Below are positions 1-51,314 of a stretch of DNA of 64,000 bases, piece after piece. The position numbers and the translations under genes are program-made. The stretch is taken from NCBI GenBank assembly GCA_039621445.1, contig CP154954.1:3043715-3107714 (forward strand). Reading direction: 5' to 3'. This stretch comes from Euglena gracilis. Lineage: Eukaryota. Every line of letters begins with the position of its first letter. The stretch's first letter is position 1. Under the pieces are notes generated by a model. The model searched no databases and had not been told where the DNA came from. It saw only the letters and a list, made by a program, of their open reading frames with translations.

Positions 1-2689
1 CTCGTGNNNNNNNNNNNNNNTGTGTGCCCATCCACGCACACGCACTGTACCACAGTCGTTGTAGTTGTAGTTGTAGTTGGAGTTGAAGCAGTATCCAAGG
101 GGGTGGTCCCTATGGTCGTGTTAATCCAAACAGCTCATTTTTGTGGTGTTTACACCCAGTCTGGAAGAGGCACGCAATCATTCAGAATGCGCACCTGCGC
201 ACTCCGCTTCCGAAATGCGCGGATGCGCATTTTCACTAAAACTGCCTAAATTTTGTGACTCAACAAGAAAAGTGCATTCCGGCCGTGAGGTTCTTGATTT
301 TGGGGATGCAGGGCAATGCAAGGCGATGTCGGCATTTTTTGGCCACTGTTTGACGTTTTCAGCCATTTTGGCCACATTCGGCTGTTTTGTTTGCTGCTTT
401 GACCTTTTTTTGGCCATTTGAGGTCTTTTTGATTTGATTTTGATTTGAGGTTTATGGATCGTTGGACGAATCGTTACCGGCATATGGGGGCGAACCATTC
501 AGGCTGTTTTTCTGTTGACACAGGGACTGGGGTGAAACTTTGCAATGGTCAACATAAAGTTTTTCGGGAAAAGAAATATCGGCAGTATCTTGGCAAATTT
601 TGTGTCAACGTCTTGAAGAAGGAACCAGCAGCACCAGCCCAACAAGGTAGCGGAGGCAGCTATCCCCTCAGACCAAAGCGCCCCCCCCCCCGGGTGGCAA
701 CACTTGTTGGGGCCACAATGGATGGCCAAGTATGCACGGTAAGAGTTTCGGTAGGCTGTGCACAAATTGGCGAAGAATATTAAAATTTTGCGGCCAAGGT
801 TGCAAGTTGTGGCTGCAGGCCAACTTTAACAAGGCCAAGTTAAAAAAGGAAAAGAAAGGACAAGTGGTGTAACGGCCCGCAGTGCCACTGGCAGTGCCAC
901 CGCAATTCACCCCACACCTGCGTGGCACCTCCCTCCAGGGGACAGATGGGTTTTCGAGAACCAAAGCAACCAGGGGGGTGGGGGCGGGGGAGGTGCACCA
1001 TGGGCCAGTCTGTCGTGTCCCGACCGAAGGCCAGACCGAAACTTTTTTTTGAAAGACTTCCAGCCGAGTTTGTGTTTGTGGGAGGGTGGACCCCCCCTCC
1101 CCAACTGCCAGGGGGGTTGATCAATTTTTTTGTGGATCCGCCCGCCAGCTGGGGAATGATTTGCGAGCTAGGGGCTTCCTGCTTTTGAAAACGGCTTTCC
1201 TGATAAAGGTCGTACTGAGCTCGAATCTCCCCTCTGGACCCCAGTTCATAATTTTCATCCCCAGTTGTGGAAATTTTGGAAGTTCTCCACCTTATCCCGT
1301 CCACGCCATGTTGTTGACACTCACCCCTTTCCTGGTTATTTGCTGTTTTCATTATTGTTACCATCCCGTTGCACCCCTGCCCCCTTGTCAAAGCGACATT
1401 CCTGGAGCAATCAAACCGCATCAAAGGTTTCAAGGTTCTTAGGCGGCCTAACTCGCACTTAAGGTTTTCATTTTTAGCTTGCGCTTTGGCGCAAATTTTC
1501 GATTTCTTTGAGACCCGGCGGTAGAACCCACCCTTTTGACCCTCTGGTTCCGCGGAGACCCTCCACGGTGGCGTGTGCATCGTTTTCCGATGTTGGGACC
1601 CGGGGAACAGGCCCAATTTTGGTGTTTTTCAGCCTGTGCACCATTTTGAAAAAGGTCCAAAACCCTGGGTTTGACCGCCGAGACACGTGAATTTTCCCAA
1701 AAATGGGCCAAAACCCCCGTTGTGAGTCCCTCGTTTTTGAAGCCTTGGCTGTGTTCCCCGGATGGTGTCACACAGTCCAGGTGACAATTGGCCCTTTTTG
1801 TTGTTTTTTTGGCTCTGTGATATGTCTGTGAAGAGTTTGGTTGCTGAGGCATCCAGAGGGCGGACTCTACACACACGTCGTGAAAAGTTGGAAAAAACGG
1901 CGTGTCACAGAGTTGTGATCCTTGGGTGCTTGAAGCGTGAGGAGCGGTGCAGCGGGAACCACCCTGGTGGGGGGGTTGGGGGGGACTGAGGGCAAGCCCA
2001 GGGACCTGTCCCAACGTCTGGTGAGCAACGTCAGGCCCCACACTGCCGGGCACAGAAGGCAATGGTTATGGACATTTGCGCTTAAGCGCAAATTTTTAGC
2101 TTGCGCTTAAGCGCAAATTAAAAATTTGCGCTTAGGCGCAAGCTAAAACAGAAGCCCCCTGTGTGGTATGTAATGAGTCACATCCCGAATGCCCAGATGG
2201 TGGCTGCTTTCTACATTGTCACATGACAATTTTTTTTGCGAATCATATGCAGAGAGACGAGGGGCACGAGGAGAATTGGTCTTTTTTAGGAGCCCCCAGC
2301 CGCCTTTGGTATTAGAGAGTCTCCAGTGGTTGATGCGATTCCGGTGAGGATGTCATTTTAAAACAGCTTGAAACGCCGGCGGAACCTTTTTTTGACCACC
2401 ATGCTATAAACCAGCGGTGGTCTAGTTCCAGGAAAAAAAAAAGTCAACTCCGAACGCTTCCCCCCAAAAGACAAAGCGCCCTCTTCTTCAAAAGAAAAGT
2501 AATTGCGCACCAATTCCTCTATCAAACAGCTTTCCCTTTCCACAATCCTTGCAGGAATTTTTTGAAATTTTCTTGACTGCCACGTCACCAGTGTTGACTC
2601 ACGGACTCAGCCCACCCAATATGCCTGCATTCTTTAAAATTCAAAATTGAAAACTCCTGAACTCAATGCTTACTGCTTCAGACGAAAAC

Positions 2690-3560
2690 ACCGTACTGTC
2701 GGAAGGAGAAAATCCTTGGAAGTGTGTGGGAGGTCCGCTGGTCCACTGGGAGAGAGGTGAAGGACGGGTGCACATGGGGAGATGAGGGTCCAGACAGGGT
2801 GCGCAGAGGAAGGGTCCGCACACGGGAAAGGTCCTCCAGGGAAAGGGGCTTTTGTGCACACGGGTCCAGGGCAGTGGGCGGTCCTCAGGTTCAGGGACAG
2901 GGAGAACAGGCTGGAGAGGGCTGACGTCTCCGACCGGCCGGATCCCGCGGACACGGCCGTCACGCTTGGGGCTCACCATCCGCTGGTGCACTCTGCACTT
3001 TCCCCCTGAACCTGGTCCTGAACTCCCAAAACTGAACCTTCAAAACCTCAGCGCAGACTGAAATCTGTTTGCGCCAACGCGCAAATGCATTCTCCCAAAA
3101 AGTGAAAACCAGTATCCACTCCAGGGGGAACATTCAACCCACTGTACCATTGCATCATTCTGGACACAGTGTGTAAAATGAGCAGTGGGTAAACTCCAGG
3201 CAGGACAGGAACAACAGCGGGTGGTCTCCGGGCTGCGCTGCGCTGGTCACCCCGGGGCTTGCACTTAGTCAATTGCCCATGAAAACGCTCCATAAAAGCG
3301 TGAAATACCTCATGTAAGCGTCCCCAGCATGTTTGTTGAAAAAAATAAAAAAAGCAAACAAAAAAAAAACACATACCACAGGTTTCGTTGGAAGATGCCG
3401 AACAACAGAGCTGGTCTGACTGGATGTATTGTCTCATCAAAAAAAACCAAGTGCAACAACCCCTGCGGCAGCCTGTATATGGTGAAGGAGACCAGCGTTG
3501 CTGTCCTCCGCGCAGGACAGCTTGCGCTCAGGGTGTGAGTGGGTGGCGTGCTGCCTTGCG
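2690..3560 (-). pseudogene. Degenerate GC-rich coding-like patches inside copy 1, product unknown
   Basis: GC3-biased patches at ~2700-3000, 3120-3330 and 3450-3540, with Cys pairs (CPGPVC, CAPC) in different frames. No continuous ORF; strand not certain. Confidence 0.3.
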
Positions 3561-3867
3561 AACTGATAACACTATCCAAAAAAAAGAGGGTTACTAAATG
3601 TATTTGCGCGTTGGCGCAAATACATTTAGTTCTTATTCACAGAACACAGCTTGCATATCATCCACCGGGGTGCACCCATGACGTTTGAAATAACCAACCT
3701 GGTCACTCAACAGGTAGGTACACACTGAAACACTCCAGGAATACAAAGCATCATAATCCCATCCGCCTTTGCGCTTTCGCGCAAAGGCGGATGGCTGATA
3801 CACCAATTTGACCCACTGTCAGGGGATGGGGATCGGGAACCAGGGTAGCACGTCCCTCCGTTGGGAA

Positions 3868-3975
3868 TCACTTCTTCCCGCCGGCCCCGGTACCGCGGTG
3901 CCGCTGCAGGCGCTTGCTCAGCGCTCCTGCCGCTTCCGCCGCAGCCGGAGGTGTAGTGCCAGCGCTCTCCTTCGC
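3868..3975 (-). pseudogene. Remnant resembling the C-terminal end of the copy-2 gene
   Basis: Reads TPPAAAEAAGALSKRLQRHRGTGAGGKK* versus KPAAASESLAKRLSKHKK* in copy 2, on the same strand relative to the TIRs. Confidence 0.45.
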
Positions 3976-6874
3976 TGTAGGCTTGTAATGTAATTGCGTT
4001 TGCGCCAACGCGCAAATCTGATTACATTTGCGCCAACGCGCAAATACAACTGTACACAGCCCTAAAAAGGTTAATGTTCATACCCTGTCAGAGGGATGGG
4101 TTGTTTGTATCTCTTGTGGCTCATCATAATTTAAATTGAATACATCTTGAATCATGACCAGGAAAACGTTACAGAAACTTTCACCTTGGTGTGTTTCAAT
4201 TGAGGCTGATGCTAGGAAGTCCCGACACATTTGCGCTAAAGCGCAAACGTGTCGGGTGAAAATGGTGTATCAGAAAGGCACTGAAGGTTATGTTGTAAAG
4301 GCACTGTGAGTGATGGTAAAAAAAAGAAGCACTGCACTTTGACGGCAAGGTAACAAACTAACAGCGTTAACCACGCACACAGCAGCAAATACCCATTGCG
4401 CGCAGGCGCGATGGGTATTTGCTGCACGAAGGGATACATTTTCTGAAATTCTCCGTTCTAATACAACAGGCCAAAGGAATGTCAGAGAAAACAAGGCAAT
4501 GGACACGCAGTATTGGTGTCAATGAAAAGTGGGGAGATAGATTGAAAGCAAACATCACAATGTTTCTAATGTGGCACAGGAACTCCAATGGATAAAATTT
4601 CCATTGGTATTCTGAAACGATTTATAGATTGAGTTTGACCTGTGGGGGAGCACCGATTTAAATAGAAAACGCACACAAAAACAGAGAAGAAACGGGCGGC
4701 TGCAGTCAAACCCGGGGAGAGAGAGAGTCTTAACTAGCGCGATAGGACCAATCAGATAGCACGTGAAGGAGAGGTTGTTGGGTGGTACAAGTACAAGGAG
4801 ACAGTAGGTATTTGTCAACAAATTGTGTTCACTGAGAGAGAGAGACTTAATTCGCAGTGGACACACAACAAATAAATTCCAGTTTTAATTAGAAGCACAT
4901 CGCGATTTTTTTTGATTTTTAAAAAGAGTTCACAGTCGGATGTCAAGGCCCGGATTTGACTGTCATACGGTCAAGCACAACGGAGTGGGGAGCAGGCGTA
5001 ACACATCTGAGGCACAACACCCATCAACACAACACTCAACTAAAAACTCAGTCGCTGTGTACACAATCAACCGTAAGTACGGATTTGCATCCTCGTGGGA
5101 GAGAAAGTGACAACTCAGGATTCCAGAAGACAAAAAAAAAACCAGGAACAAATGCAGTGGCAACACTGCCGTGACAAGGTCATTGACACTTTCTGAAATT
5201 GTACTGGCTTACTAAAACATCGAACACCGTGGGACATAGACAGACTTACTGGTGCACAGTAAGTCACCGACTGGTACACTGGTCAGCCATGGTCGGGTCA
5301 TGGCTTGGTATTCTTAAAAGTCAAGGATTGTTTGTTGGAGAGAGTCCTGTGAGTGACTCTATTCACACAAGGCTTACGCAGTTTGCGCCCTCCACATTAA
5401 ACGTGTTTGCGCGTTAGCGCAATACACCTACTCACACAGTTTTTAAAAATTGTATTTCTATTTGCGCTTTGGCGCAAGGTAACTCGTAAATTTCCATCCT
5501 TCATGGGCCTACCCCTTGCGCTTTGGCGCAAATGGAAACACATGTTGACTCAAAAGTTGTTATCATTGTTCAAATGCGGCAATGGTCACCCACGTGTTGA
5601 ATCACAAAAAAGTCAAAAATTTGCGCCAAAGCGCAAATGGTTTTATTTTTTGTAATTTCAAAAATTTGCGCCAAAGCGCAAATGAGTAAGAGTAATCCCC
5701 TCGTTTCATCACCCGCCGCTTTGTGTTCATGCACACCGGGACCCGGGAGCGCTGTGCCCGTGGACCGTGGAGTTCCTAGTCGTTGCTTTCGTCCCCAGGC
5801 CCTGGGGTGCAGGGACACACTTTTTTCAGACTGTCTCGAGTCTCAGGCCACGGTTGTCGAAAACCAAACTTTTTTGGGGATTTGCGCGTTGGCGCAAATT
5901 TACAGTCATTTTCAAAGCTAAGTGCGAGTTAGGCCGCCTAAGAGGTTAGTTAAGTTTGAATTTTTACTCGGAAATAAACAAAGTTCCATTAAACATATCG
6001 TCTTTTTTTTTCAAAATAAATTTTCAAAAATGAGTGTTTGGGGTTTTGACTTCTTCTTTTTGAAGGGGGAAAAGAGAGGTTTCTCATTTCGTTTTATGGT
6101 CCATCTTTCCAACTCGTACTTCCTCTTTGTGTGGGCAACACCACTCTGATTCATATTTTCCAATGCTTAGACCGGCTGGCCAATGCGGTTTGGGGCTGGC
6201 AAGGCGGCAGTCATTGGAAAATGATTTGCCAGCGGGAGTGTCTGTGGGTTCACTGAACTGACTGTGTTCACTGAACTGACTCCCACAACAAGCAAAACTG
6301 CTTGGAAAGTGCCAAGAATCCGCACCGATCACAGTTCCATAAGTGCATAAGTTGTTTTCAGACTGTCCAGGGTCCAGGGTTTCATCGTGTTTGCAAATTT
6401 CCAAAAAGTGTTTTTGTTTGCGATCTGCTTTAAGCTTGGCCATTTGAATTTTACTCTGAAATTCTTGATATGCAATGGTCCACAAACTTGGCACAATTTT
6501 CCTCTTGGGGGACTTCATCTTGTTGCAGTTTCCAATGTTCTGTGTGTTTTTCTGTGGTTTGTGTGGTGATGTAGCCAGGAGGAGTAAGGGAGAAATCCTC
6601 AAATGTGTGACTATGTTCACTGTGTTGTGTCTCCCCTCACAACAAAAAACTGCTGTTGGAAGCCAAGAATCCGCACCCCGACCTCACCCCCCCCATACTT
6701 TTTCAGCTCCGTGGTAGGGTCCAGGCATTTTCCCCCTCCCCCCCCCCCCCCCCCCCCTCCCTGTCTCGGCCTTTTGCCTCCCCCCCCCCTTACCCCCTTG
6801 ACCCCCCCCCCCCCTTTAATGTGCCAATTTGATCCCCAAAAGTCCCCCCCTACACCCGGCTTTACCATCAGAGG

Positions 6875-12109: not shown

Positions 12110-13090
12110 CCTGCTCAGCCTGCAGTCCAATTTTTGGCTGGTCTAGAGGTGACCGCACGTGGACTGGCACGGGGACTTGCACTGGCACCCGCACCGGCAC
12201 TGGCACTGGCATGGGCATGGGCAATTGCACCGGAACGGGCATGGGTCCACCAACACTGGCCTTTCCAACACACATCGGTGGGCCCCATCGAATTCGCGCT
12301 CCTACCTGTGAGGCACCCTCCGGGATGCTGCCTGCGCAGGGAGGGCTGGTCAAGGCCTCGGTGGCACCTTCGAGGGCTGGACACGGCCTCTGGGGCATCC
12401 TTCTGTATAGCACTTTGCATGAGGGTGAAGGCCTCAACGGCAACACTTGGGACGGCACCTGCACAGGGGGGAGGGCTACGCATTGCCACCGGGGCACCCT
12501 CTTGGATCACAACGCGGTTGATAGGGCTGCACGCGTCCCCCTCGGCACCCTCCAGATTGGCTCCGGCTCCACGAGGGGGGCTGCTCGAGGCCTCACGGGG
12601 CTGTGTTCAGCTGGATGTTGGTTGGAGGTTTGGGAAATGGCTGCAAACCCTCCGAAGCAAAACGGACCGCCCCGGCAATGGTGCGTCGTCGGCCCCTGGT
12701 GCCTGTGGTGTACTGTGCGGCTCTTAGGTGTGGACCTCCTCCTCCACAGCCTCGACGATAGGGGCTCCGAGAGGCAGTGTGGGGATGGCCGCCAGGGTGT
12801 CCAGGCAGGAGCTGAGATCGCTCATTTGTGCTTGGAGGTGGAACTGGGGGGACTTGCGGGGGCGGGGGTTGTGGTCGGTGTGGGACAAAGGTCTGCCAGA
12901 ACAATGGATTGTTGGCTTGCCTGATGTGTGGGGCTGGGTACCTGGGGTTTGGGGGGCACGAGCTGACCCTTGGGAGCGCAGGTATTGAAGCATCTTCCGA
13001 AACTAGTTCTGGAGCTCCTTGGTGCGGACATCGGAGGCCTGCCACCGGCGTTGCAGGAAGCAGCTCCAGACCGAACAATCGAGTTTCTCA
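12110..13090 (-). pseudogene. Degenerate coding-like sequence interrupted by transposon copy 2 (other part at ~22342-22570)
   Basis: One long minus-strand frame with scattered stops (…VWSCFLQRRWQASDVRTKELQN*FRKMLQYLRSQG…). GC-rich sequence continues beyond the right TSD. Product not recognised. Confidence 0.3.
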
Positions 13091-15036
13091 CTTAGGCGGC
13101 CTAATTCGCACTTAAGGATTTAACTTTTTATTTGCGCATATGCGCAAATCGCCCGGTTTTTTGAATCCGGCGAGGAAGGTCCGGGGGGTGGGGGCGAGAG
13201 GGATAAAACGAAGGGGGTGGCGGAGGCCCGAGGGACTTGGACACGGTTGGGGTCCTTTTTATTTTGGCAGCGGGGGGCCCCGGGTTGGGCAGGGGGGGCC
13301 TCGCAGGGGGGAGGGATCCCATTCCCTACCTGCACCTTACCCACCTCCACGCACCCCCCACTAGCATACTCCCCCACCCCCCCCCGGCTCTTACTCCCTG
13401 CGACCCATCTTTTAGCTGCACCTCCATCCCCCCCACCACCTCCATACAATCCAACGTGAATACCCCCCCATTCACACGCCACGGATCTTTTGTGCCTTAA
13501 CCCCACTTTGCAGGTTGTCTCCCCCTTCTCGCCCCCGAGATTTGGCTCCGTGCCTGATGCCCAACCTGCCCACTTTCGTTTGTGCTCCACATAAACCCCT
13601 CCCCTTCCTCTTCCGAAAAAAGCTCCTGCACAATTTCCCTGTAACCGGCGTTGCCCCGCCACCGAACCCTTTTTTGCACTTTAAATTTATTTCGCATACC
13701 GCAAATCATTGGGACCGGCAACTAAGCAGGGTAAGAGCAAGCAGGGCTAAAGGGAAGCGGTGTTTTTGTAACCTTGAAGAGTCCGGGGGACACACACAAG
13801 CCATTTGTCGACCAAGTTTTTTATTTACACCCCCCCCCCCCGCAAACCCTGGTGCAAAAAAATGCAAAAAACACCTAACGGGGACCCTGCCCCCCCGCCC
13901 CTACGAACGCGGAGCCTTTTTTGAGAAAGTGAACTCGCCGGCAGTGTGTTCCCTCCCGGTGCCTCGGAGTGTGTGTGTGTGTCCTTTTACCCTGACGACT
14001 TGACAATTTTTGATTGGTAATGAAAGCAGGGGAAAGGGTGGGAGGGCTCTGGGAGGGGTGCGGGTTGGGGGGTCCGGTGTGCAGGGGGTGAAGGGAGGAG
14101 GGGTCCAGGGTGCGGAGGGGTGACGGTGCAGGGGGTGTGCAGGGGTGGTGTGCAGCGGGCAGGGCGGTAGGGGTGAGACGCCCGCAGGGGTTGTCAGTGG
14201 GGGCCTGGTTTACTGTTGTCATTGGCTTGTGTGCGTGCAACCCGCGACTTTGACCTGGGTGTTTTTGTGAGGCACCAAAACAGACAATTGATGTTGATGC
14301 GCGCAATTGCGCAAATAAAACGTACGATGGTGTGCATGCCAGGGGATGAGAGGGGTGCCGGTGGAAGAACCACATGATTGAAAGAGTTGGGGATGAGCTG
14401 ACTCCACTGTAAACAAAAAACTGAACCAGGCAAACAAACCCCCGGCGGGCGGTGGACACGCTGGCCGCCCGGGGCTGAACAGGAAGAGGGGGGCCGCCCC
14501 GCACTCCGCCCGCGCGCAGGTTGTCAGTGGGGGGTGGTGCTTGGAGAAGGGGTTATGTTTTTTTATTTTTTGTGACACGGGTCAGAGGGGCAGCACGGCA
14601 CGAGAGGGGGGCTGCAGGGTCACGAGAGGGGGTGTGTCACACCAACCCAAAAAAAAAAACCAAGTCCACCCCCCGGCAGGGTAGAGGGCTTGGGGATGAC
14701 GGTCAGCAGGGGGGCGGTGTACACGGACACCACAGCGGTGGGGCACTGTCTCCCAGTTGGCAGGCAAATAACAAAATGACAAAGTGTGTGTTGTACTTGC
14801 GCAATTGCGCGCATCAACAACACTGATGAATTTTTTGTTTGAAACAAAAATTCTGAGAGGGGACAGACCATAGCCGAGAAGGAACTGAGAGGGGGAAACA
14901 TTTGTAATTGTAACATTTGCGCAAATGCGCGCATCAAAAGTGTTTTGTACAAAAAAATATCAGAAGCAGAGAATGGAGTGGGGAGTAGAACTGAAGAAAG
15001 AAAAAAGAATGTGCTGAGACAGGCCCACAGCCAGTC

Positions 15037-15624
15037 TCACTTCTTGTGCTTGGAGAGCCGCTTGGCCAGGCTCTCCGAGGCGGCCGCCGGCTTGGCGCCG
15101 GGCTTGGGCAGCCCGCGGCGGACGGTGCTCCGGGGTGCCGCAGGCGGGGCGGTACGAGGCGGTGGCGGTGCCGGGGCCTCCTCCTCCTCCTCAGACTCCG
15201 CCTCCTCGGACTCCGCCTCCTGCGGCGCCGCCGGTGCCGAGGCCGCCGCAGCCTGCGACGACGCTGCCTCCGCCGCCACCTTGGCGATGGCCCCCTCGAT
15301 GACGTGCTTCATCGCCGGGTACTTCTTGGGGTCCAGGAGGTGGTACGACTTGGGGCCCTTCAGGGCCTCCCCCGGGCCCGGGGGACGGATCAGCCCCGCC
15401 GCCCTCCACCGGGTGTCCTCCTTGCCTCCCTTGCCCTTGCCCTTGCCCTTCCCCTCCCCCTTCTTCTCCTCCCCCTGTCTCTCCTTCCCCTTCTGGGGCT
15501 CTGGCTTCCGGTACCCGGGGGTGATCTCCTCGATGGTGTCCTCCTCCTCTTCCTCTTCTCCCTGCTGCACTGGTGGGACTGCGGGAGCTTCGCTGGCGAC
15601 TGCAGAGGAGGTGTCCGAGCTGTC

Positions 15625-15656
<32 letters not shown>

Positions 15657-18600
15657 CCTCCTCCACCTCCTCCTCCTCCGGGTGGCGGCTGGGCTGGGCC
15701 ACCGGTGGCGGCACGATGATGGGGCTGGCTCCGGGTTCGGGCGGGGTCAGCTCCGGGGTCTCTCGGCCGGGGGCGGTCATCTCCACGTCGCCCTCCTCTG
15801 GGCTGTCCACCGCCTCGGTCTCCTCCCGTCTGGGTTTGGGGGCTGGGGGCCTGCTGGGCTTCCTCTCCGGCTCCTTCTTCCGGCGCTTCTTCTTCCGGTC
15901 ACCCCCACCCTTCTGGCGCTCCTCCAGCTTCTGTAGACGGCGCTGCTCCTGCCGAATCTTGGTCTGGCGGCGCCGCTCCTCGGCCTCCTTGGCCCGTCGG
16001 CCCGCCTCCTCAGCGGCCAGGCGGAGCTTGTCCTGGAGGGCGGCGTTCTCCAGGGGGACCCAGAGGGCGTCCCCCCCTTCCAGGGCGGCCAGCAGGAGGG
16101 GCAGCATGGCGGAGGCGACGGGCCGGGGCAGGGTCACCGTGTTGGCCACGGTCTGGGTGACGTCCTCCAGGCTGCTGGCCGAGTCCTCCACCACCACCAG
16201 CACCTCGGGGGGCTTGGCCGCCCAGGCCGCCACCCGGCCGGCCACCGCGGCATCGGCGGTCTGGATGACCATGGCGTTGGCCGCCTCCATCCGCCGCACC
16301 ACCCTCCGCCACAGCCACTCCACGCAGAGCCAGTGCAGCCCCTGCCCGCAGCTGGACTCCACGTCCCACTCCACCTTGGGCAGCACCTGCGAGGGGACGA
16401 GGGGACCAGACAGACAAGGTAGACTCAAAGACTTTTTTGTATGAGGTGCGCGCAATTGCGCATCAAATGATCACATTTTTAAAAAAAGATGCAGAGGATA
16501 GGTGGCACTCCAGCATCCAGTGTCTGAAATGTGGAATGGCAGTCTGCATAATGCGTGAGGTGGGGTGGGGTACCTTGCTTCGCTCCACGTCACCCGGGCC
16601 GTACACGACCACCAGGACCCGCTTCTCAAACTTGCGGGCCACCCCCTGGCCCCCCTGCCGCAGCCAGACGTCCACCGTGACCGACTCCCGCCCCGGCGCC
16701 AGCCGCCGCACCGCCGCCTCCACCGCAGCCACCGCCCCGGCACCGTAGATGGTGACCGGCACGACACCGGCCAGGCGCTTGACCTGCTCGGACAGGAGGG
16801 GGCAGGATTCTGTTTCAGAGTGTTGGCGCACTGACAGACACGTTGAGTCATTTGATTTGCGCAAGTGCGTGCATTGTAACATTTGCGCAAGTGCGCGCAT
16901 CAAATTTAAAAAAAAAATTGCATACACACCCTGGGAAGGTGCTACTGCTGAGAGTGAGAGTATGAATTTCTTTTTTTTTGTGCGCGCAATTGCGCAAGTA
17001 AAACAGAAACTACTAAAACTGAAAAAGACGCACGTTTAAACAGAACCCTGAGCCCGTGTTGTGGGTGACCTCGATGACGACGAGGCCCACTGCGGCCCCC
17101 AGCGCCTCCGCCGGCACCGCGCCGCCGCTGGCCTGGTACACCAGGCAGCGCACCCCCTTCTCCTCCCCGGCCGGCCTGGCCACCGCCACCTCCTGGAGGG
17201 CCCCGCCCTCCTTGGCCACCACCTCGGTCTCCACCGTCGGGAACGCGAAGGAGGCCCGCAGCTCCTCGTACTGCGCCTTCACCCAGAAGGGGGCCGTCAG
17301 CACCGCCGCCAGGGGGGGCTTCGGCTCCGCCGGGCTCCAGGTCCACGACCCCAGCTGCGCCACCGGGACGGTCCGCTTGAAGCGGCTGCGCTCCGCCCCG
17401 TTGTGCACTGCGAGACAACAGTGAAGTGGGGGGGGGAGAAGCACAAGACGACAGTTACAATGCACCCAGTGACCATCACCACCAACCGCCGTCCAGTGAT
17501 GTGGGAACCCTTCACATGCAACCCTGACCCACCCAGACCCCAGTGGCACACCCATCCGCGCGTGGATGTTGGGGTTGTCGCCCCGCCACGCGAAGGCCAC
17601 CCACATCTCGTGGTTGGCCTCGGTCACCGCCTGCTCCAGCTGGGCCAGCCCGATCCCCGGGCTCTGCAGGGCCGCCGCCACCTGCGCCCGCGCCTCGGGG
17701 GTCAGCAGCCGCCGGAGGGACCACACGTGGGAGGACAGCAGCGTGCGGCCTCTCGCCGCCAGCACCGACTCGACGCTCAGCAGCCCGGCCACCGCCTCCG
17801 GGTTCTCCTCCACCAGCCGCTGCAGCGGCCCCCACATCTGGATGACCTGCCCCTGAGGCAATGACACAAATGACACAGAGACTGGAACTCTACGCCACTA
17901 CATTATGAGAAAGAATGCACTTTGCACCATCTCACACCTGGGGGACCGACTGGTCCCAGCCGGCCTGCCAGTAGGCCGCCGGCCGCACCGCCGGCACCGT
18001 GCTGATGTCCTTCCCCTTCACCAGGAGGTTGGCGAACTGGGGGATGGACAGCTCCTTCACTGACGACTGGATGGCCTGCGCATCCCCGCCGGCCGCCCGC
18101 CGCAGGTGCACCGGGGTCATGGGGTGGAGGATGGTGGCGAGGACGTACTTCCCCTGGCCACAGCCCAGCATTTGCACCACTGTCTGTCAGACCTGGGAGG
18201 GGCTGCACAGGAGGGGCGACACTACAGGGGTGACATGAGAGGGGTACCATGAGAGGGGATGCACGAGAGGGGCTGCATGAGAGGGGTAACATGAGAGGGG
18301 CAAAACAGCACCCACACAAACAAATACAGAGCTGAATCCTTCGGGGGGTTCAACTTCTGGGACCTGAAGCCCTCCGCCCAGCGCTTCAGCGCCGAGGTGA
18401 TGTGCTGCCCCGACATCAGCACGTAGTGGTTCTCTGTGAAAAACAACAGCAGCATGTGCGCGCAATTGCGCAAATCAAATAAAGTGTACGCGTATGTGCG
18501 CGCAAGTGCGCAAATCAAATGCCATTGTGTGTTTGTGCGCGCAAATGCGCAAATCAAATGCATTGTGCGTTTGTGCGCGCAAATGCGCAAATAAAATAGT

Positions 18601-21122
18601 ACCTCCCCCCCCCCCAAGCCCAACGAACACCCTTGCCCAACGAACAGGGGGCGTTCGGACCGTCTAGACTGTCACCATATACTTTTTTTTGTGTTGGACA
18701 AGGAAATACTCATTTTTTTGCTGTTGTGAGGATGCCAGAGATTCTGATTCAGGTCACGGTATTGATTCCAGTCAGGTTTCCGGATTTGTGGGGGGGGTGG
18801 ACCCCACCACCCCCTGCAAGACCCCCCCATCACACCTCCCAAACTTCAACATTTTCTCAAAATTTTGATTTTGCGAGTTTTTTTGAAACAAAAAATGCCA
18901 TTGAAAGTCCAAAAAAATTAAAAAAAAAACGTCAGCAAAATTTGATTGTGCAAAAATTTGGTCCACTTTTTTTTGACCTTCGTTTTTTTGACCCCCCCAA
19001 AAACTACTAATTTTTAACCCTGATTTTTTGAGACTTTTTGTGAAAAAAAATGGTTTCCCATCAAAAAATCATGTGTTTTGGGTTCGTTTTTTTCAAAAAA
19101 AAATTCAAAAAATTTTCTGGCTAACATCCCCATTTTCCCGAAGTCGGTGAAAATGCTGTGGTGGTTTGGTGGTCGACCCCCCCCCACCTCACGGGTGGGG
19201 GGTCGACCCCCCACCAGGCCTTCCCATTCTGCCCTGGCATGCACTGATTATGCACGTTTCAAGGCTACACTGAAAAGGTGACAGAATTAGTGAACACCCA
19301 TGTCCAACGAACGCCCCCCGTTCGGACCGTCTAGGTTGTCACTTTAGTGTTCGTTGGGCTTGGGGGGGGGGAGGTACCTACCATGCAAAGCACAGTTGCC
19401 AAAGCAGAGCCCCACATACCAACAGAGACTCCACAGGCTAACTGATGTCAGAGAGACCGTCAAACCTCACACAGTCATACAACACACAATCACACTGAGA
19501 GACACACCGGCCTTCTTCCAGACCGTCACCCGCACCGGCTCCAGCGGGGGGTTGAGCTGCAGCTGCCGGAGCTTGCGCTCCACTTCGTTGTTGTCGAGGG
19601 GGCGGGTCTGGCCCTCCGTCATATTGTAGTCGACGTGGAGGGTGTCGAGGGGGAGTTTGGTGCCGGTCGCCAGCACCCACTGCTCCACCTTCTCCTTGTA
19701 CACCTCCGCGATGGGGAGGTTCCGGGCGGTGTTGCGGGGGCGGACCCGCCCCGGCTTGGCGTTCAGCATCCCCACCTGTGAGGAGATGCGGTCGTCCGTC
19801 AGCATGAAGGGCCGCCACACCGGGACGCGGGCGTTCTCTCAGCCGCATCAGAGTCACCGCCTACTGTATGATACCGTCTGTACAGTCACACCTCTGACAG
19901 AAAACAGACGGAAAATTGATTTGATGCGCGCATTTGCGCAAATGCGCGCATCAAATCAATTTACAAACGTTCAACGGGTGCAGAGGGTGGCCTAGGACCG
20001 GAACTCATTCAGATTCACGTAATGCGCGCAAATGCGCAAATCAAATCGAAGTGGCAGAGTTAAAGAGAAATCTGTGTACATCACCGCTTCCCAAATACAT
20101 ACCACAGAGGACTCGAAAAAATTCATGCACCGTAATGTGCGCGCAATTGCGCGCACATTACGGTTAAATTACACTCTTTTTAACTGGGACCCAGCCACAA
20201 CCCTAACCCCAAACACAATCAACATCAACATGTACAGGTTGTTCAGACCCTTCAGCCCGTCAACCAACACAGGCTATTTGAAAAAACAAAACACATTCAG
20301 TCATTCTGATGTTCGGGGCACGTCCAGCGGTACGCGCAGCTCGTGCGCCTCCAGTGGGCGTGCGCCGATGTCAGCGACCAGCTCCAGGAACGACGGCAGG
20401 TCGCTGCGCACCAGCCGCGCGGACACCCGGTGGACGCGGCCCAGCAGCTGCTCCAGCGACGGGTACCCCGGGTACTCCGGGATGGCGCCCACCGCCGTCC
20501 GCATCATGGCCATGACGCAGCAGTCGTGGGTGCGGATCACCATCCTCGGGTTTGACGTCATGGCCCTCTTCCAGAAGTTGTCGAACCAGAGGACGCAGCT
20601 CCGCCCCTCCGTCTGCTGCCACAGGTCCTCCAGCCGCTCGCACGCCCGCTCCCGCCGCCACTGCCGGTTCCACATCGGCTCCTCCGGCAGGATGCCACTG
20701 GGCCGCAGCAGTCGGCTGGCCGCCCGGTGCCGGGCCAGCGGCGCCTCGTGCTCCTCGGCCACCACCCGCTGCGCCGCGCGCGGGCAGGCGTGCTGCCGCA
20801 GCGCCCGGTACACGGCCCAGGCGTCCTTCAGCAGCAGCTCAATCCGCGGCCGCCGCGGCTCCCGGGCCAGCTCCTCCAGCAGCGCCGCGCCGCCCTCCGT
20901 CCGCAGTGGCACCCGGGTGTGGGCCACCTGCACGACCAGGGTCTGCAGCGGGTGGCCGCGCTGCACCACCGCCGCCACAAACTCCTCGTAGCTGGCGGCG
21001 AAGTGGGCCTTCACCAGCTGGCCCAGCAGCTTCCCCGACTCCGCGGCCAGGGCGGCCTCCTCGCTGTAGCCCTCGTAGCCACGGCGGCGGGAGTGGGTGC
21101 TGCTGGCCTGGGAGGACTCCAT
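15037..21122 (-). CDS. Spliced transposon gene, ~1227 aa: transposase-like N-terminus + ParB-like domain + possible degenerate DNA-methyltransferase-like fold + acidic/basic low-complexity tail
   Basis: Hand-assembled exons 21122-20315, 19840-19508, 18433-18338, 18155-17938, 17852-17552, 17407-17054, 16797-16574 and 16386-15037 total 3684 nt in one frame with strong GC3 bias. Four introns are GT-AG and three are non-conventional. Motifs: VLWFDNF...WRPFMLTDDRISSQVG; GQTRPLDNNEV...PPLEPVRVTV...YVLMSGQHITSAL. Further upstream exons (e.g. MADDQAGY near 21388) cannot be excluded. Confidence 0.8.
16798..17053 (-). other. Euglenid non-conventional intron in the transposon gene
   Basis: GCTCAGGGTTCTGTTT...AAACAGAATCCTGCCCCC. 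Near-perfect 13-bp end pairing with CAG/CTG at +4/-8. Restores frame (HNT-V-LSEQ). Confidence 0.8.
18156..18337 (-). other. Euglenid non-conventional intron in the transposon gene
   Basis: ATTCAGCTCTGTATTTG...CAAATGCTGGGCTGTGGCC. CAG/CTG register with extended end pairing. Restores frame (NPPK-E-GKYVLAT). Confidence 0.7.
18602..19374. mobile_element. MITE with ~30-bp TIRs and TA flanks (Tc1/mariner-like) nested in a GT-AG intron of the transposon gene
   Basis: TA|CCTCCCCCC..AAGCCCAACGAACAC ... GTGTTCGTTGGGCTTGGG..GAGG|TA. Interior ~18830-19240 is homologous to ~62500-62885. Confidence 0.8.
19841..20314 (-). other. Euglenid non-conventional intron in the transposon gene
   Basis: C|GAACATCAGAATGAC...GTGACTCTGATGCGGCT|G. 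CAT(+4..+6) pairs with ATG(-8..-6), both borders are Y|R, and splicing restores frame (DVPR-ENARVPVWRPF). Confidence 0.8.
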
Positions 21123-22727
21123 TCAGTCCACCCCAGGTCCGGCGGCCCACCACCTTTCACCAAAACCCACTATTCCGTCCACATAACACCGGCCAGTCCC
21201 ACCATTCAGAATGCATCGCACACACACAACATTCACGCACTACACATCCACACATCCCTCTGATTCATTTTCTTTTCTTTGGAGACGTTTTGTGCGCGCA
21301 ATTGCGCAAGTCAACAAGGAAACAGACACACACCATTTCATAGCTGTACCCCGCCTGGTCATCCGCCATGTAGGTTAGCTCCAGGCAGGGAACAGCAATC
21401 AAACATCAGCATATGGCCATAATCACCCCGCACTTCACGCACACACTCTCAAATTGGTTGCCAGCATGGCATCTCCGGAGTCACAACATTTCCAGCATTC
21501 ATACAAATCAGACCCCCTTTCACTCCACTAAGTAACCGATTACGTCCAAAGTGTTTCATTAGTCACACAACACCCACTGGGTAGCCTCACAACAAAAAGT
21601 AACAAATTGTGCGCGCAATTGCGCAAGTAAAATGGTACCACTTTTCATCACTGACACAATCCTGGGCGTCACAAACCCCTTCTCAGCAGCTCAATCCACA
21701 ATTGAGACAACAATCGTTTGATGCGCGCAGTTGCGCAAGTGTGCAATGCGCCATAAGTAAATTTCTGTTGAACATCAATTAGAAGGTTCATTCATTCATT
21801 CAAAATTCACCGGGCGTTTCGTCACCCTTGTCCAGGACAGGGGGTGTCACACCCCTCTTCGGACACACTCAATTCCATCGTACTTCGCAATCGGTGGCAC
21901 CCAACACACCCTCGCAATAATTCTCAATTCCATCAAGGGTGTCCAGTTTCATCGTCAGCCAAACCATTGATATCCACAGGGCACGTTGGGGCACCCAAAA
22001 GTCCAAAACCGCACGCCGCCAGATCTGGCCAGGCGCTTGCCGCGGGCAGCTGTGGGGTGGTAGTGGGTGTGGATGGGTGCCCCGCGGGCAGCGTGAAAGA
22101 AAGCAGCTGCGGAGAGGGACAGGTACAAATTTCACGCGCCCGTCCGGTCGCGAAGTCCGGTTAGGACTTTGTATTTGAAGGGGTTCGAATTGCCCAGCCC
22201 TAACGAGTTCCGTTCGCGATCACAAATTTTTTTTTCGGCGGTCAGGGTACAGGGTCCCAGGGGTTACAAAAAAAGTGGTACATTTGCGCAATTGCGCAAA
22301 TCCAACGGAAAAAAGCTTAAGTGCGAATTCGGCCGCCTAAGTCTCAGGGTAGGGCGACGTTGGCGACGCTCTCTTTGAAGTCCTGCACATGGGAGAATCC
22401 TAGCTTGCGATGAAGCGTCCCATCAGCACCCCACCAAGCTGCGGGCGGGGTCGGTGGTGTCTCACTTGGGGTATGGAAGGGGACTCCTCCTCGCGGTCGA
22501 AGAGCGTGGTACGTAGGCGATGATGCGGCAGCGGACACCGAGGGAGAAAACGTCAGCAGGGTCTGTGAGGTCTGGTTGAGGGTCATAAGTAAATTCTTCA
22601 CAAGTAAGGGTACGTTTTGTGCAAAAGTACATCAATGTGGTGATTTTTGGCTCAAAGCACTGGTAGGAACAAATCCACGTTTTTGGATTGTGGTCTTGGA
22701 CCTGACCTGGAAAATCGGTGCACGGTC

Positions 22728-50564: not shown

Positions 50565-50611
50565 GACACCCACACAACACACACACACACGCACACGCGC
50601 GCGCACACACA

Positions 50612-50658
<47 letters not shown>

Positions 50659-51150
50659 ACACCCACACCCACACCCACACCCACACCCACACCCACACCC
50701 ACACCCACACCCACACCCACCCCCACACCCACACACAACACACCCACACACCCGCATACAACGCATACACCCACACCCACACAACACACACACACACACA
50801 CGACACACAACACACACCCACACCCACACACAACACACACACATGAACACACAACACATGCACCCACACCCACACCCACACAACACACACAACACACACA
50901 ACACACCCGCATACGACACATACACCCACACACCCACACACAGCACACACCCACACCCACACCCACACACAACACACACAACACACACAACACACACAAC
51001 ACACCCGCGTACAACACATACACCCACCCCCACACAACACACACACATACACACAAGAGACACAACACACCCACACACCCACACAGAACACATACACATA
51101 AACCCACAACACATGCACACACACATCCACACACAAAACACACACACACT
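50565..51150. repeat. (CA)n/(CACACC)n low-complexity tract
   Basis: Direct inspection. Confidence 0.95.
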
Positions 51151-51204
51151 CATAGGGACACACAGGTTAAGTTCTCGTTCTTAAACTTGTTCCATTGCCA
51201 GCAG

Positions 51205-51264
51205 GCTTTCCGCCGCCCCACCTCACGCCGCGGCTTCTCCGCCTGCCGTCCTGCCCTCCTGCAG
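51205..51264 (+). promoter_or_regulatory. Candidate spliced-leader trans-splice acceptor of the phosphatase gene
   Basis: C-rich pyrimidine tract ending CTGCAG about 50 nt upstream of ATG 51315. Confidence 0.4.
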
Positions 51265-51314
51265 AGCGGCCTCCCGACCCTCCCGAACCGCTGGCAGCGG
51301 ACAGTGGGGCTGTG

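What the first reader, a model, noticed from the sequence alone, without database searches (positions are those of the whole stretch)
13091..22341. Eukaryotic DNA transposon pairing a ParB-like protein with its own array of parS-like palindromes
Seen: a 9.25-kb element with 26-bp TIRs and a 5-bp TSD. It carries about 19 GCGC-N4-GCGC palindromes (near 13131, 14296, 14797, 14916, 16446, 16856, 16882, 16980, 18456, 18495, 18535, 18572, 19923, 20022, 20137, 21292, 21609, 21721, 22283), all in introns or flanks and none in exons. Its spliced gene includes LPLDTLHVD..GQTRPLDNNEVERKLRQL..PPLEPVRVTV..YVLMSGQHITSAL. Established: this layout matches the ParB/sulfiredoxin N-terminal fold, bacterial ParB loads on ~16-bp palindromic parS sites, and Arabidopsis VANDAL elements encode VANC proteins that bind motifs in their own non-coding DNA to escape silencing. 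Inference: the element protein binds these palindromes to coat the element, for end synapsis, anti-silencing or self-recognition. I do not know of this combination being described.
Basis: partly seen in the sequence, partly recalled or inferred. Interest (0 to 1): 0.92.

Follow-up and report, generated by a model that had tools for sequence, protein, structure and literature searches.

The report
Rearranged transposon carrying ParB-like gene
This is a real, recently inserted DNA transposon from a repeat-rich eukaryote. Its long gene is a fusion of a truncated transposase-like gene and a ParB-fold gene, its non-coding DNA is studded with one two-fold-symmetric motif, and a similar pairing was already proposed for red-algal transposons in 2025.

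Summary
Window 13091-22341 is a 9,251-bp element with 26-bp terminal inverted repeats (TIRs; 25 of 26 match) and a 5-bp target site duplication (TSD), TCTCA. A DNA run holds the matching empty site. The element has 20 GCGC-N4-GCGC sites against about 0.3-1 expected, and 19 lie outside exons.

I found a second, non-coding element at 1438-5942. It has the same TIRs, a 5-bp TSD and 17 TTGCGC-N4-GCGCAA dyads, yet shares only its terminal ~60-80 bp with the first. The motif is therefore a family-specific cis feature.

The ParB/sulfiredoxin fold is supported indirectly. A contiguous homologue folds confidently, and all 15 rows shown of its 20 matches with E<=0.001 are Noc/ParB/KorB. No Pfam match was found, and GERR is replaced by GQH.

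The "1227-aa gene" is a chimera. Homology to a candidate-transposase family stops at 19761-19764, and homology to the ParB-like family starts at 19757, without that gene's own N-terminus. This copy is probably non-autonomous.

Binding of the dyads by the ParB-like protein is plausible but untested, and a transposase is a serious rival. The idea is not new: red-algal Plavaka PAG3 (ParB-like domain plus inverted-repeat arrays) was described in 2025. I class this as a new variant of a known kind.

The parts
13091..22341 (-). Element 1 (EL1): 9,251-bp TIR transposon copy, with its gene on the minus strand
   Evidence: TIRs and TSD; empty-site contig joining 13085 to 22342 in DNA run X1
13086..13090 (.). 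Left copy of the 5-bp TSD, TCTCA
   Evidence: 5 letters fit both sides of the empty-site joint
22342..22346 (.). Right copy of the 5-bp TSD, TCTCA
13091..13116 (+). Left 26-bp TIR, CTTAGGCGGCCTAATTCGCACTTAAG
22316..22341 (-). Right 26-bp TIR (one mismatch to the left TIR)
13132..13147 (.). Subterminal dyad TTGCGC-ATAT-GCGCAA; its GCGC core starts 43 bp from the left end
22284..22299 (.). Subterminal dyad TTGCGC-AATT-GCGCAA, about 44 bp from the right end
14301..21736 (.). Span holding 17 internal GCGC-N4-GCGC sites of type (T)GCGCGCAAWTGCGCAAAT: 14301, 14799, 14919, 16450, 16885, 16984, 18460, 18500, 18539, 18577, 19928, 19936, 20026, 20141, 21296, 21613, 21725. It also holds a one-mismatch site near 16856. 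All lie in introns, upstream of the ATG or downstream of the stop codon.
   Evidence: tandem array 18455-18597 with a 38-bp period
20307..21122 (-). Exon 1: N-terminal 272 aa, homologous (35-54% identity for 8 proteins whose match spans ~250-270 aa) to an uncharacterised candidate-transposase family (P0001 and relatives). Contains the WFDNF and PLDVPR motifs.
19757..19764 (-). Fusion breakpoint inside exon 2. Homology to the P0001 family ends at 19761-19764. Homology to the ParB-like P0004 begins at 19757.
   Evidence: the match of a high-depth X1 contig also stops at 19761 (table 8, record 6; orientation ambiguous)
19508..19835 (-). Exon 2: a 24-aa remnant of the P0001-like gene, then the first half of the ParB/Srx-like domain (LPLDTLHVD...GQTRPLD...PPLEPVRVTVW)
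   Evidence: phmmer gave 30 relatives; family HMM E=1.1e-20
18318..18433 (-). Exon 3: second half of the ParB/Srx-like core (YVLMSGQHITSAL)
   Evidence: Family HMM E=0.018, second best of 1,883 ORFs; profile positions 128-151 follow directly on exon 2's 66-126
17938..18183 (-). Exon 4: helical region after the ParB-like core
   Evidence: Collinear but non-significant HMM match (E=8.1, profile positions 164-190); open frame
15037..17852 (-). Exons 5-8 (17552-17852, 17034-17407, 16574-16783, 15037-16386): about 745 aa with no recognisable domain, ending in a K/E/S-rich low-complexity tail
   Evidence: No Pfam hit, no homologue, no meaningful PDB sequence hit; open frame
18606..19371 (.). Nested 766-bp MITE-like insertion in intron 2, with perfect 25-bp inverted ends. 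Not part of the family.
   Evidence: Inverted repeat I13; RNA reads break off at 18606-18609 and 19370-19371; a relative lies at 62498-62884
1438..5942 (.). Element 2 (EL2): 4,505-bp non-coding family member. Same TIRs (1 and 3 mismatches), TSD AGGTT, and 17 GCGC-N4-GCGC sites (16 exact TTGCGC-N4-GCGCAA) with variable spacers. The first site is 43 bp from the left end.
   Evidence: shares only its terminal 59-81 bp with EL1
39575..40243 (+). Decayed third copy: a lone left TIR (3 mismatches) followed by degenerate dyads at 39878, 40182 and 40232
59688..59837 (.). Two truncated family ends, each with a subterminal TTGCGC-type palindrome. This accounts for the 'outside' site at 59824.

Best explanation
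SHOWN. EL1 is a recently inserted copy of a very high-copy cut-and-paste-type family: 26-bp CTTAGG... TIRs, a 5-bp TSD, and an empty site on record. Its 8-exon, 1,246-codon open frame is a chimera. The first ~296 codons come from a gene of the P0001 family, which has no Pfam family, an alpha/beta core with conserved acidic motifs, and a weak fold likeness to Hermes and P-element transposases. The remainder is a ParB/Srx-fold gene that has lost its native N-terminus. Every element end in the window carries a TTGCGC-N4-GCGCAA dyad about 43-47 bp from the tip. Both EL1 and the unrelated non-coding EL2 carry 17-20 such dyads spread through all their non-coding DNA.

INFERRED. A parent element carried both genes in tandem. 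An internal deletion, of the kind abortive gap repair produces, fused them in frame. EL1 therefore lacks most of the candidate transposase and is mobilised in trans. The dyads have fixed half-sites and a free 4-bp spacer, so they look like recognition sites for a dimeric, element-encoded DNA-binding protein. My preferred candidate is the ParB-like protein. It would nucleate at the dispersed dyads and mark or coat family members in cis and in trans, giving self-recognition that could serve anti-silencing, DNA modification or end pairing. This would parallel ParB-parS, VANC-VANDAL and the proposal for red-algal PAG3.
For: Mobile element: TIRs and TSD in two elements; empty-site joint with 5 shared letters; summed contig word-depth of 10^4-10^5 over most of the element.

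Chimera: 11 of 12 P0001-family proteins match exon 2 only up to 19761-19764 and nothing downstream; the twelfth matches exon 1 only. All 12 continue with RVLRFL...LLVDxNLWY...WHPYKQ...SEExNEA, which is absent from the window. P0004 (88.5% identical over 96 aa) matches from 19757 onward, and its first 81 residues have no match in the window. Most ParB-like relatives in the alignment (27 rows: 26 relatives plus the window's exon 2) begin with their own Met plus a low-complexity N-terminus.

ParB fold: AF2 model of homologue P0011, pLDDT 87-97 over residues 61-170. Foldseek found 20 PDB matches with E<=0.001. The 15 of these shown are all Noc/ParB/KorB, and PadC, sulfiredoxin and SbnI follow. The family HMM hits window exons 2 and 3 collinearly, at E=1.1e-20 and E=0.018.

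Motif as a selected cis feature: 43 sites observed against 0.38 expected. By location: 20 in EL1, 17 in EL2, 3 in the decayed copy, and 1 of the 3 'outside' sites in a family fragment. EL1 and EL2 share only their terminal 59-81 bp. In EL2 the TT flank is present in 34 of 34 half-sites while the spacers vary. Exons have 72% G+C and 34 GCGC occurrences but only one non-consensus site.

Precedent: passages in 10.1101/2025.02.11.637652, PMC12477816 and the abstract of PMC5735166.
Against: No binding evidence of any kind exists. The ParB-fold evidence rests on a homologue (47-48% identical over 52-55 aa), not on the window's own spliced protein, which I could not submit. Pfam and NCBIfam give no ParB hit, and a family profile finds no ParB in PDB by sequence. 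The region after the N-domain, which would be the HTH, is modelled at only pLDDT 41-60. GERR is GQH in the 7 contiguous homologues (G128, Q129 and H130 invariant), so CTP clamping is doubtful.

The P0001 family's transposase identity is weak: no Foldseek match with E<=0.001, and the best is Hermes at E=0.052, probability 0.77. No parent element with both genes was found.

A subterminal site at a fixed distance from each end is what a transposase site looks like. Intron 1 lacks an in-frame GT donor that keeps the conserved VPR, and expression is near zero, so the chimeric ORF may never be made.
Confidence: 0.45

Rival explanations
1. The dyads are transposase-binding sites, bound by the P0001-like protein or another transposase supplied in trans. 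The one at a fixed 43-47 bp from each end positions the enzyme for cleavage. The internal copies raise local transposase concentration or arose by tandem duplication. On this reading the ParB-like protein is an accessory or captured gene with a different role (nuclease, NTPase or chromatin/DNA-modification partner) and does not read the motif.
For: A subterminal dyad sits at the same offset in EL1 left, EL1 right, EL2 left and EL2 right, and is present at the decayed and truncated ends. The non-coding EL2 keeps 17 sites although it needs only cis sequences for mobilisation. The ParB-like family lacks the GERR arginines. The EL1 chimera retains the helical N-terminus of the P0001-like protein, which could be its DNA-binding part.
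Against: Sites occur more than 4 kb from either end, in every long non-coding segment. That is unusual for transposase sites, which in the families I recall (Ac, En/Spm, Hermes) cluster within a few hundred bp of the ends. The transposase identity of P0001 is itself only a lead.
Confidence: 0.3
2. The dyads act through structure or host factors rather than an element protein. They could form hairpins or cruciforms (6-8-bp stem, 4-nt loop) in DNA or intronic RNA, or be sites for a host dimeric factor. They could affect replication, transcription, small-RNA production or recombination, or they could simply be a tandem-duplication-prone sequence that hitch-hikes.
For: A conserved stem with a free 4-nt spacer is also the signature of a hairpin. 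Several sites lie in short tandem arrays: 38-40-bp period at 18455-18597 and 25-bp period at 2076-2141. Many DNA-contig joints in run X1 connect one motif site to another (table 5), which fits recombination or assembly collapse at the motif.
Against: The stem sequence is fixed (TTGCGC) rather than covarying. The sites are confined to this TE family in the window: 41 of 43 lie in family elements or fragments. Two elements with unrelated interiors both maintain the sites, which argues for sequence-specific recognition tied to the family.
Confidence: 0.15
3. One reading: EL1 is an intact autonomous element whose single native ~1,230-aa protein combines the transposition functions and a ParB-like domain that coats the element.
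For: The whole 3,741-nt spliced frame is open, and 6 of 7 introns are canonical. TIRs and TSD are intact, and an empty site exists.
Against: None of the 12 P0001-family proteins carries a ParB-like part, and none of the 29 ParB-like relatives (30 hits minus P0027, a short 24-residue match) carries a P0001-like N-terminus; most of the latter are single-exon fragments. The two homologies abut within 1-2 codons. The fused protein lacks the conserved LLVDxN, WHPYKQ and SEExNEA blocks. X1 depth differs by 10- to 1,000-fold between segments of EL1: 16-63 at 13221-13862 and 12,210 at 19962-20282, against about 10^5 elsewhere. That pattern is expected for a mosaic derivative.
Confidence: 0.1

Closest known systems
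PAG3 accessory protein of red-algal Plavaka (EnSpm/CACTA-lineage) transposons (Petroll et al. 2025; I read passages of preprint 10.1101/2025.02.11.637652)
   Same: A DNA-transposon-borne protein whose N-terminal domain is ParB-like but invisible to Pfam/InterPro. The paper's best HHpred hit was 7BNR, which is also my second Foldseek hit. Arrays of inverted repeats lie inside the same element. The same inference was drawn: the protein binds its own transposon. The paper states that the gene moves between TE families.
   Different: PAG3 carries a putative 2OG-oxygenase domain and sits in 17-19-kb elements with two further accessory genes and an EnSpm transposase. Here no oxygenase or methylase was detectable. 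TIRs are CTTAGG... with a 5-bp TSD. The dyads are dispersed through all non-coding DNA and fixed at both subtermini, rather than forming one adjacent tandem array.
ParB-like + DNA methyltransferase accessory proteins (Ectocarpus Sola1-1_Ec32, passage of PMC12477816; chlorophyte/chytrid ParB-HTH-Dam fusions, passage of PMC4738411)
   Same: A ParB-type domain of prokaryotic flavour carried by eukaryotic DNA transposons and proposed to target the element's own DNA.
   Different: Those proteins are fused to an N6A/N4C methyltransferase. None is detectable here. No cognate motif arrays are reported in the passages I read.
Bacterial ParB/Noc/KorB with parS/NBS/OB sites
   Same: N-terminal fold (Foldseek E=8e-6 to 1e-3, probability 1.0). 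A conserved Q-x-R motif and a G-x-x motif at the positions of ParB's QPR and GERR (ParB motifs recalled, not from a call). The partner is a dyad-symmetric ~16-20-bp site present in many copies.
   Different: GERR is GQH, and there is no Pfam ParBc match. The setting is a eukaryotic, intron-containing gene. The protein has about 745 extra C-terminal residues of unknown fold. CTP binding, clamping and spreading are untested.
VANC anti-silencing proteins of Arabidopsis VANDAL (Mutator-like) elements (PMC5735166 and PMC10398659, abstracts seen in the search listing)
   Same: Works like it, if my reading is right: an element-encoded protein recognises short motifs that accumulate, partly as tandem repeats, in non-coding regions of its own family, including non-autonomous members.
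   Different: No sequence or fold relationship is known. VANC is not ParB-like. The effect on silencing is wholly untested here.
hAT (Hermes) and P-element transposases
   Same: Best, though weak, structural neighbours of the P0001-family model: Hermes E=0.052 with probability 0.77, and P element at rank 7. The model has an alpha/beta core with conserved acidic residues and a long helical insertion.
   Different: No Foldseek match with E<=0.001. No hAT or other transposase Pfam domain. A 5-bp rather than the usual 8-bp TSD, and TIRs unlike hAT's (hAT features recalled). The superfamily is unassigned.

Membership tests
Cut-and-paste TIR DNA transposon | Terminal inverted repeats | tested here: met
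   26-bp TIRs, 25 of 26 matching in EL1. The same sequence bounds EL2. A lone decayed TIR lies at 39575.
Cut-and-paste TIR DNA transposon | Target site duplication of fixed length and a precise empty site | tested here: met
   TCTCA for EL1 and AGGTT for EL2, both 5 bp. An X1 contig joins 13085 to 22342 with 5 shared letters. The empty site may be paralogous rather than allelic.
Cut-and-paste TIR DNA transposon | Element-encoded DDE/RNase-H-fold transposase | tested here: inconclusive
   The P0001-family model is confident (pTM 0.72), with conserved WYDNF, PLDxPR, LLVDxN and SEExNEA motifs. Its best PDB neighbour is only Hermes at E=0.052. No Pfam or PDB sequence match. EL1 itself retains only the first ~296 residues.
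ParB/Srx (ParB N-terminal domain) superfamily | ParB/sulfiredoxin N-terminal fold | tested here: met
   Met for homologue P0011: pLDDT 87-97 over residues 61-170. All 15 rows shown of the 20 matches with E<=0.001 are Noc/ParB/KorB, followed by PadC, Srx and SbnI. Link to the window: phmmer E=1.3e-5 in 1.8 billion proteins, and the family HMM hits exon 2 at E=1.1e-20 and exon 3 at E=0.018. The window's own spliced domain was not folded.
ParB/Srx (ParB N-terminal domain) superfamily | Match to the curated sequence model (Pfam ParBc PF02195 or NCBIfam ParB models) | tested here: not met
   No hit at E<=1 for the window exons or for 10 and 6 homologues. A family profile against PDB sequences finds no ParB.
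ParB/Srx (ParB N-terminal domain) superfamily | CTP/NTP-binding arginine patch (GERRxR) and catalytic Q of the QPR motif (motifs recalled from knowledge of ParB) | tested here: inconclusive
   G-Q-x-R is invariant in all 27 aligned sequences. The second motif is G-Q-H-x-x-K/S-A, invariant as GQH in the 7 contiguous homologues, so it lacks the arginines. Nucleotide binding is not predictable from this.
ParB/Srx (ParB N-terminal domain) superfamily | Adjacent helix-turn-helix domain that reads a palindromic site | tested here: inconclusive
   Foldseek alignments to Noc/ParB/KorB span 201-255 columns, which is beyond the N-domain. That part of the model has pLDDT 41-60 and the rmsd is 10-17 A.
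ParB/Srx (ParB N-terminal domain) superfamily | Sequence-specific binding to the cognate palindrome | not testable with these tools
   Needs EMSA, DAP-seq or ChIP.
PAG3-type transposon accessory protein (Petroll et al. 2025) | ParB-like N-terminal domain plus inverted-repeat arrays in the same element | tested here: met
   for the domain. for the arrays; a 3.7-copy tandem array at 18455-18597 lies about 20 bp upstream of exon 3.
PAG3-type transposon accessory protein (Petroll et al. 2025) | C-terminal 2OG-dependent oxygenase domain | tested here: inconclusive
   No Pfam hit and no meaningful PDB sequence hit for exons 5-8, and no homologues.
PAG3-type transposon accessory protein (Petroll et al. 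2025) | Sequence homology to PAG3 | not tested
   PAG3 sequences are in supplements I could not open.
hAT superfamily | 8-bp TSD, hAT C-terminal dimerisation domain, hAT-type TIRs (features recalled) | tested here: not met
   5-bp TSD. No Pfam hAT domain in P0001-3. Only a weak fold likeness to Hermes.

The most novel reading that the evidence does not exclude
This would be a previously unclassified eukaryotic DNA-transposon family: 5-bp TSD, CTTAGG TIRs, and a candidate transposase with no known family. It would use a ParB/Srx-fold protein lacking the canonical CTP-binding arginines as a family-specific 'address reader'. Dimers would nucleate on TTGCGC-N4-GCGCAA dyads, which every member keeps at both subtermini and multiplies throughout its non-coding DNA, whether it is autonomous, rearranged or gene-less. 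The protein would thereby mark or coat family DNA in trans, for anti-silencing, modification or end pairing. It would be a eukaryotic, transposon-borne counterpart of ParB-parS, evolved independently of the oxygenase- and methylase-fused versions. The in-frame fusion in this copy (transposase N-terminus plus ParB-like body) could additionally act as a regulator that competes for the same sites.
Probability: 0.3. Interest if true: 0.8.

Novelty: new variant of a known kind. Interest (0 to 1): 0.55.

Why it matters
How transposons tell their own copies from the rest of the genome is known in molecular detail for very few systems, with VANDAL/VANC as the main example. ParB-like accessory proteins have recently been noticed in red, brown and green algal transposons, but in the passages I read the cognate DNA site is given only as tandem arrays of inverted repeats, with no sequence-level definition.

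This locus offers an unusually clean candidate pair. The dyad is sharply defined, with fixed half-sites and a free spacer. It is present in two elements that share nothing else. Beside it sits a ParB-fold protein family with a confident model. That makes the proposal directly testable by EMSA or DAP-seq.

The locus also exposes an apparently unclassified candidate transposase family (12 members, no Pfam family) linked to a 5-bp TSD.

That matters for anyone who would clone "the" protein from this copy.

Tried and rejected
1. Direct domain recognition failed. The seven window ORF pieces gave no credible Pfam match at E<=1, only four sub-threshold chance hits and none to a ParB or transposase family. 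Ten ParB-like and three P0001-like homologues gave no ParB, transposase or other credible Pfam match either. NCBIfam gave nothing meaningful.

2. PDB sequence searches gave only chance hits or coiled-coil noise. These used exon 2, P0001, and the family profiles A2 and A3.

3. ESM Atlas gave no usable hit for exon 2 or for P0001.

4. I looked for a parent element or any genomic context of the two gene families and found none.
- Metagenome contigs with P0004 and P0034: no relative.
- Prokaryote genome contigs with P0001: none.
- Viral contigs with P0016: none.
- Cluster look-up gave no names or organisms.

6. Homologues of exons 5-6: none among 8,000 scored candidates of 161-515 aa. Longer and shorter proteins were not searched.

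7. Rfam search of the window: no family reached threshold.

8. RNA evidence for splicing or expression of the chimeric gene was too thin. About 5-6% of three RNA runs were read. Exon depth was 0-3 reads, and most RNA reads fall on the nested MITE.

9. I considered and rejected the idea that LPLDTLHVDYNM and SGQH are the second and third catalytic motifs of the P0001-type protein. I had suspected this. However, the ParB-like family aligns there with high significance and P0001 homology stops upstream.

10. I did not run complex prediction. A homodimer result would not tell me which protein reads the dyad.

Full report
**1. The observation**

The sequence at 13091-22341 is bounded by CTTAGGCGGCC(T/G)AATTCGCACTTAAG in inverted orientation, with 25 of 26 positions matching, and is flanked on both sides by TCTCA. 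Laying public reads added independent support. In DNA run X1, one contig joins 13085 directly to 22342. It skips 9,256 bases, which is the element plus one TSD copy, and 5 letters fit either side. This is an empty site. Because the flank itself has moderate depth, the site may be paralogous rather than allelic. Either way it fixes the element's boundaries and the 5-bp duplication.

Most of the element has a summed contig word-depth of 10^4-10^5 in X1, so the family is very abundant in a large genome.

**2. The motif**

GCGCNNNNGCGC occurs 43 times in the 64-kb window against 0.38 expected. Twenty sites lie in the element. Simulations of the element alone give a mean of 0.34-1.01 and a maximum of 4. 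Nineteen of the 20 lie outside my exon model. The exception, at 18381, is a coding GCGCTTCAGCGC without the consensus flanks. Exons are 72% G+C and hold 34 GCGC tetramers, so base composition does not explain the pattern.

**3. A second element makes the motif a family feature**

The same TIR bounds a 4,505-bp element at 1438-5942 with TSD AGGTT, again 5 bp. It has no ORF of note and shares only its terminal 59-81 bp with the first element. Even so, it carries 17 GCGC-N4-GCGC sites, 16 of them exact TTGCGC-N4-GCGCAA, with ten different spacers.

- In EL2, the TT flank is present in 34 of 34 half-sites.
- In both elements the first site starts 43 bp from the left end, and the last lies about 44-47 bp from the right end.
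- A decayed lone TIR at 39575 is followed by degenerate dyads.
- Two truncated ends at 59688-59837 each carry a TTGCGC-type palindrome, which explains one of the three "outside" sites.

In all, 41 of the 43 sites belong to family members.

Fixed half-sites with a free 4-bp spacer, kept in elements of unrelated interior, point to a recognition site for a dimeric sequence-specific factor. In EL1 the two subterminal sites are of the symmetric TTTGCGC-AWWT-GCGCAAA type. The internal sites are mostly the asymmetric (T)GCGCGCAAWTGCGCAAAT.

**4. The gene**

On the minus strand, eight exons give an open frame of 3,741 nt, or 1,246 codons. Six introns are GT-AG. Intron 1 can keep the invariant PLDVPR only with a GA donor. 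RNA reads are too few to test this.

**5. The gene is a chimera**

*The N-terminal part.* Exon 1 and the first 24 codons of exon 2 match a family of 12 proteins from metagenome assemblies (P0001 and relatives, 487-892 aa, no Pfam domain). Identity is 35-54% where the match spans most of exon 1. In 11 of the 12, the match to the window ends at 19761-19764; the twelfth matches exon 1 only. All 12 continue with conserved blocks (RVLRFL, LLVDxNLWYR, VWHPYKQ, WAPAC, CHW, SEExNEAxLSRLG) that are absent from the window.

*The C-terminal part.* From 19757 onward, exon 2 instead matches a different family found by an exhaustive phmmer search, with 30 proteins at E<=1e-3. The closest, P0004, is 88.5% identical over 96 aa. 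It has its own Met and an acidic, proline-rich N-terminus of 81 residues that has no counterpart in the window. Most other relatives begin the same way.

*Conclusion.* The two homologies abut within one or two codons. The simplest reading is an internal deletion in a two-gene parent, or recombination between elements, that happened to stay in frame.

*Consistent observations.* Segments of EL1 differ 10- to 1,000-fold in X1 depth. A high-depth contig's match also stops at 19761, although that record's orientation is ambiguous. I could not find a parent element.

**6. The ParB question**

I could not submit the window's spliced domain, so I worked through contiguous homologues (P0011, P0016, P0019, P0009, P0013, P0017, P0029; alignment A2).

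Sequence methods fail here. There is no Pfam or NCBIfam hit, and a family profile finds no ParB in PDB.

Structure prediction succeeds. AlphaFold2 gives pLDDT 87-97 for residues 61-170 of P0011. Foldseek against PDB returns 20 matches with E<=0.001. All 15 of those shown are Noc, ParB or KorB (E=8e-6 to 1e-3, probability 0.99-1.0). They are followed by PadC, plant and human sulfiredoxin, SbnI and other ParB/Srx-fold proteins.

A profile of A2 finds window exon 2 at E=1.1e-20 (profile positions 66-126) and exon 3 as the next best of 1,883 ORFs (E=0.018, positions 128-151). The two matches are collinear and contiguous, so the window's gene encodes the whole core.

The invariant residues are G-Q-x-R and, in contiguous members, G-Q-H. 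From my knowledge of ParB, these sit where QPR and GERR sit. The catalytic-type Q and first R are kept, but the arginine patch that holds CTP is not. The part that would be the HTH is modelled poorly, at pLDDT 41-60.

Exons 5-8 (about 745 aa) remain unassigned.

**7. The candidate transposase**

The P0001-family model is good (mean pLDDT 77, pTM 0.72). It shows an alpha/beta core around WYDNF, PLDxPR and LLVDxN, followed by long helices.

Foldseek finds nothing with E<=0.001. The best match is Hermes transposase (E=0.052, probability 0.77). P-element transposase is at rank 7 and an IS256-family transposase at rank 48.

I treat "transposase" as a lead at about 50%. The protein could equally be an accessory protein of unknown function. 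The superfamily cannot be assigned: the 5-bp TSD and CTTAGG termini do not fit the hAT or CACTA definitions as I recall them.

**8. How it most likely works**

*Shown.*
- A mobile, high-copy TIR family.
- A family-specific dyad at both subtermini and throughout non-coding DNA.
- A ParB/Srx-fold gene inside the element.
- This copy is rearranged.

*Inferred.* EL1 is mobilised in trans. The dyads are bound by an element-encoded dimer. The ParB-like protein is the best candidate, for three reasons:
- ParB-family proteins read dyad sites that occur in multiple copies.
- The sites are spread over the whole element rather than confined to the ends.
- The same inference has been drawn for PAG3.

The main rival is that a transposase reads them, which the fixed subterminal position favours.

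**9. Comparison with what is known**

- The Bostrychia preprint (passages read) describes PAG3. It has a ParB-like N-terminus seen only by HHpred (best hit 7BNR, e-value 0.29) plus a putative 2OG oxygenase. Tandem arrays of inverted repeats lie adjacent to the gene, and the authors propose that it binds and modifies its own transposon. They also report the gene cassette in Mutator, Zisupton and Fanzor-encoding elements.
- The Ectocarpus TE paper (passage) reports a ParB-like/methyltransferase protein in a Sola1 element and cites green and red algal precedents.
- PMC4738411 (passage) describes ParB-HTH-Dam fusions in chlorophytes and chytrids.
- Two further searches found no other paper on the theme.

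What is new here:
- a different and unclassified element type;
- no detectable enzymatic partner domain;
- a sharply defined dyad with conserved subterminal placement;
- independent maintenance of the dyad in an unrelated non-autonomous element;
- stronger structural evidence for the ParB fold than the published HHpred value.

They may hold PAG3 sequences and repeat units that bear on homology.

**10. Verdict**

This is a new variant of a known kind, of moderate interest. It offers a good experimental handle on transposon self-recognition. The protein should be taken from an intact copy, not from this chimera.

Noticed in passing
window 18606-19371: A 766-bp MITE-like insertion with perfect 25-bp inverted ends (CCCCCCCCCCAAGCCCAACGAACAC) is nested in intron 2, flanked by AGGTAC on both sides. 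Most RNA reads laid on the element fall here and break off at its ends, so it is transcribed in other contexts. A 79%-identical relative lies at 62498-62858.
   Followed up: partly
window 20306-19836 (intron 1, minus strand): The only in-frame splice that keeps the invariant PLDVPR uses a GA donor (GAATGA...AG). The other six introns start GTGTG/GTGCG/GTACC. The host may tolerate non-GT donors, or this junction may be damaged in this copy.
   Followed up: partly
window 13221-13862 and 19962-20282: These segments of the element have far lower depth in DNA run X1 (16-63 and about 12,000) than the rest (about 10^5). The element is therefore a mosaic of common and rare family segments.
   Followed up: no
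window 18211-18301: A 14-bp minisatellite (GAGGGGTGACATGA, 6.4 copies) fills most of intron 3.
   Followed up: no
window 189-228: Two GCGC-N4-GCGC sites 28 bp apart (aatGCGCACCTGCGC, aatGCGCGGATGCGCatt) lie outside any recognised family member, about 1.2 kb left of element 2. They lack the TTGCGC flank on one side.
   Followed up: no
window 50400-51300: Long TG/CA- and CAC-rich simple repeats are seen as VCVC.../THTH... ORF translations. GC skew is -0.32 in the 50-52 kb bin. Much of the rest of the window looks like repeats, with no convincing host gene.
   Followed up: no
run X1, joints table 5: Many DNA contigs join one dyad site of the element to another (for example 14319 to 19921, 14321 to 18573, 16903 to 22309). 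Either other family members are deletion or shuffle derivatives with breakpoints at the dyads, or the short contigs collapse at the repeat.
   Followed up: no
proteins P0005-P0033: Most database relatives of the ParB-like exon end just after ...VTVW and run into GV... junk. This suggests that an intron at the same position (after VTVW) is conserved across a diverse set of unnamed eukaryotic sources.
   Followed up: no
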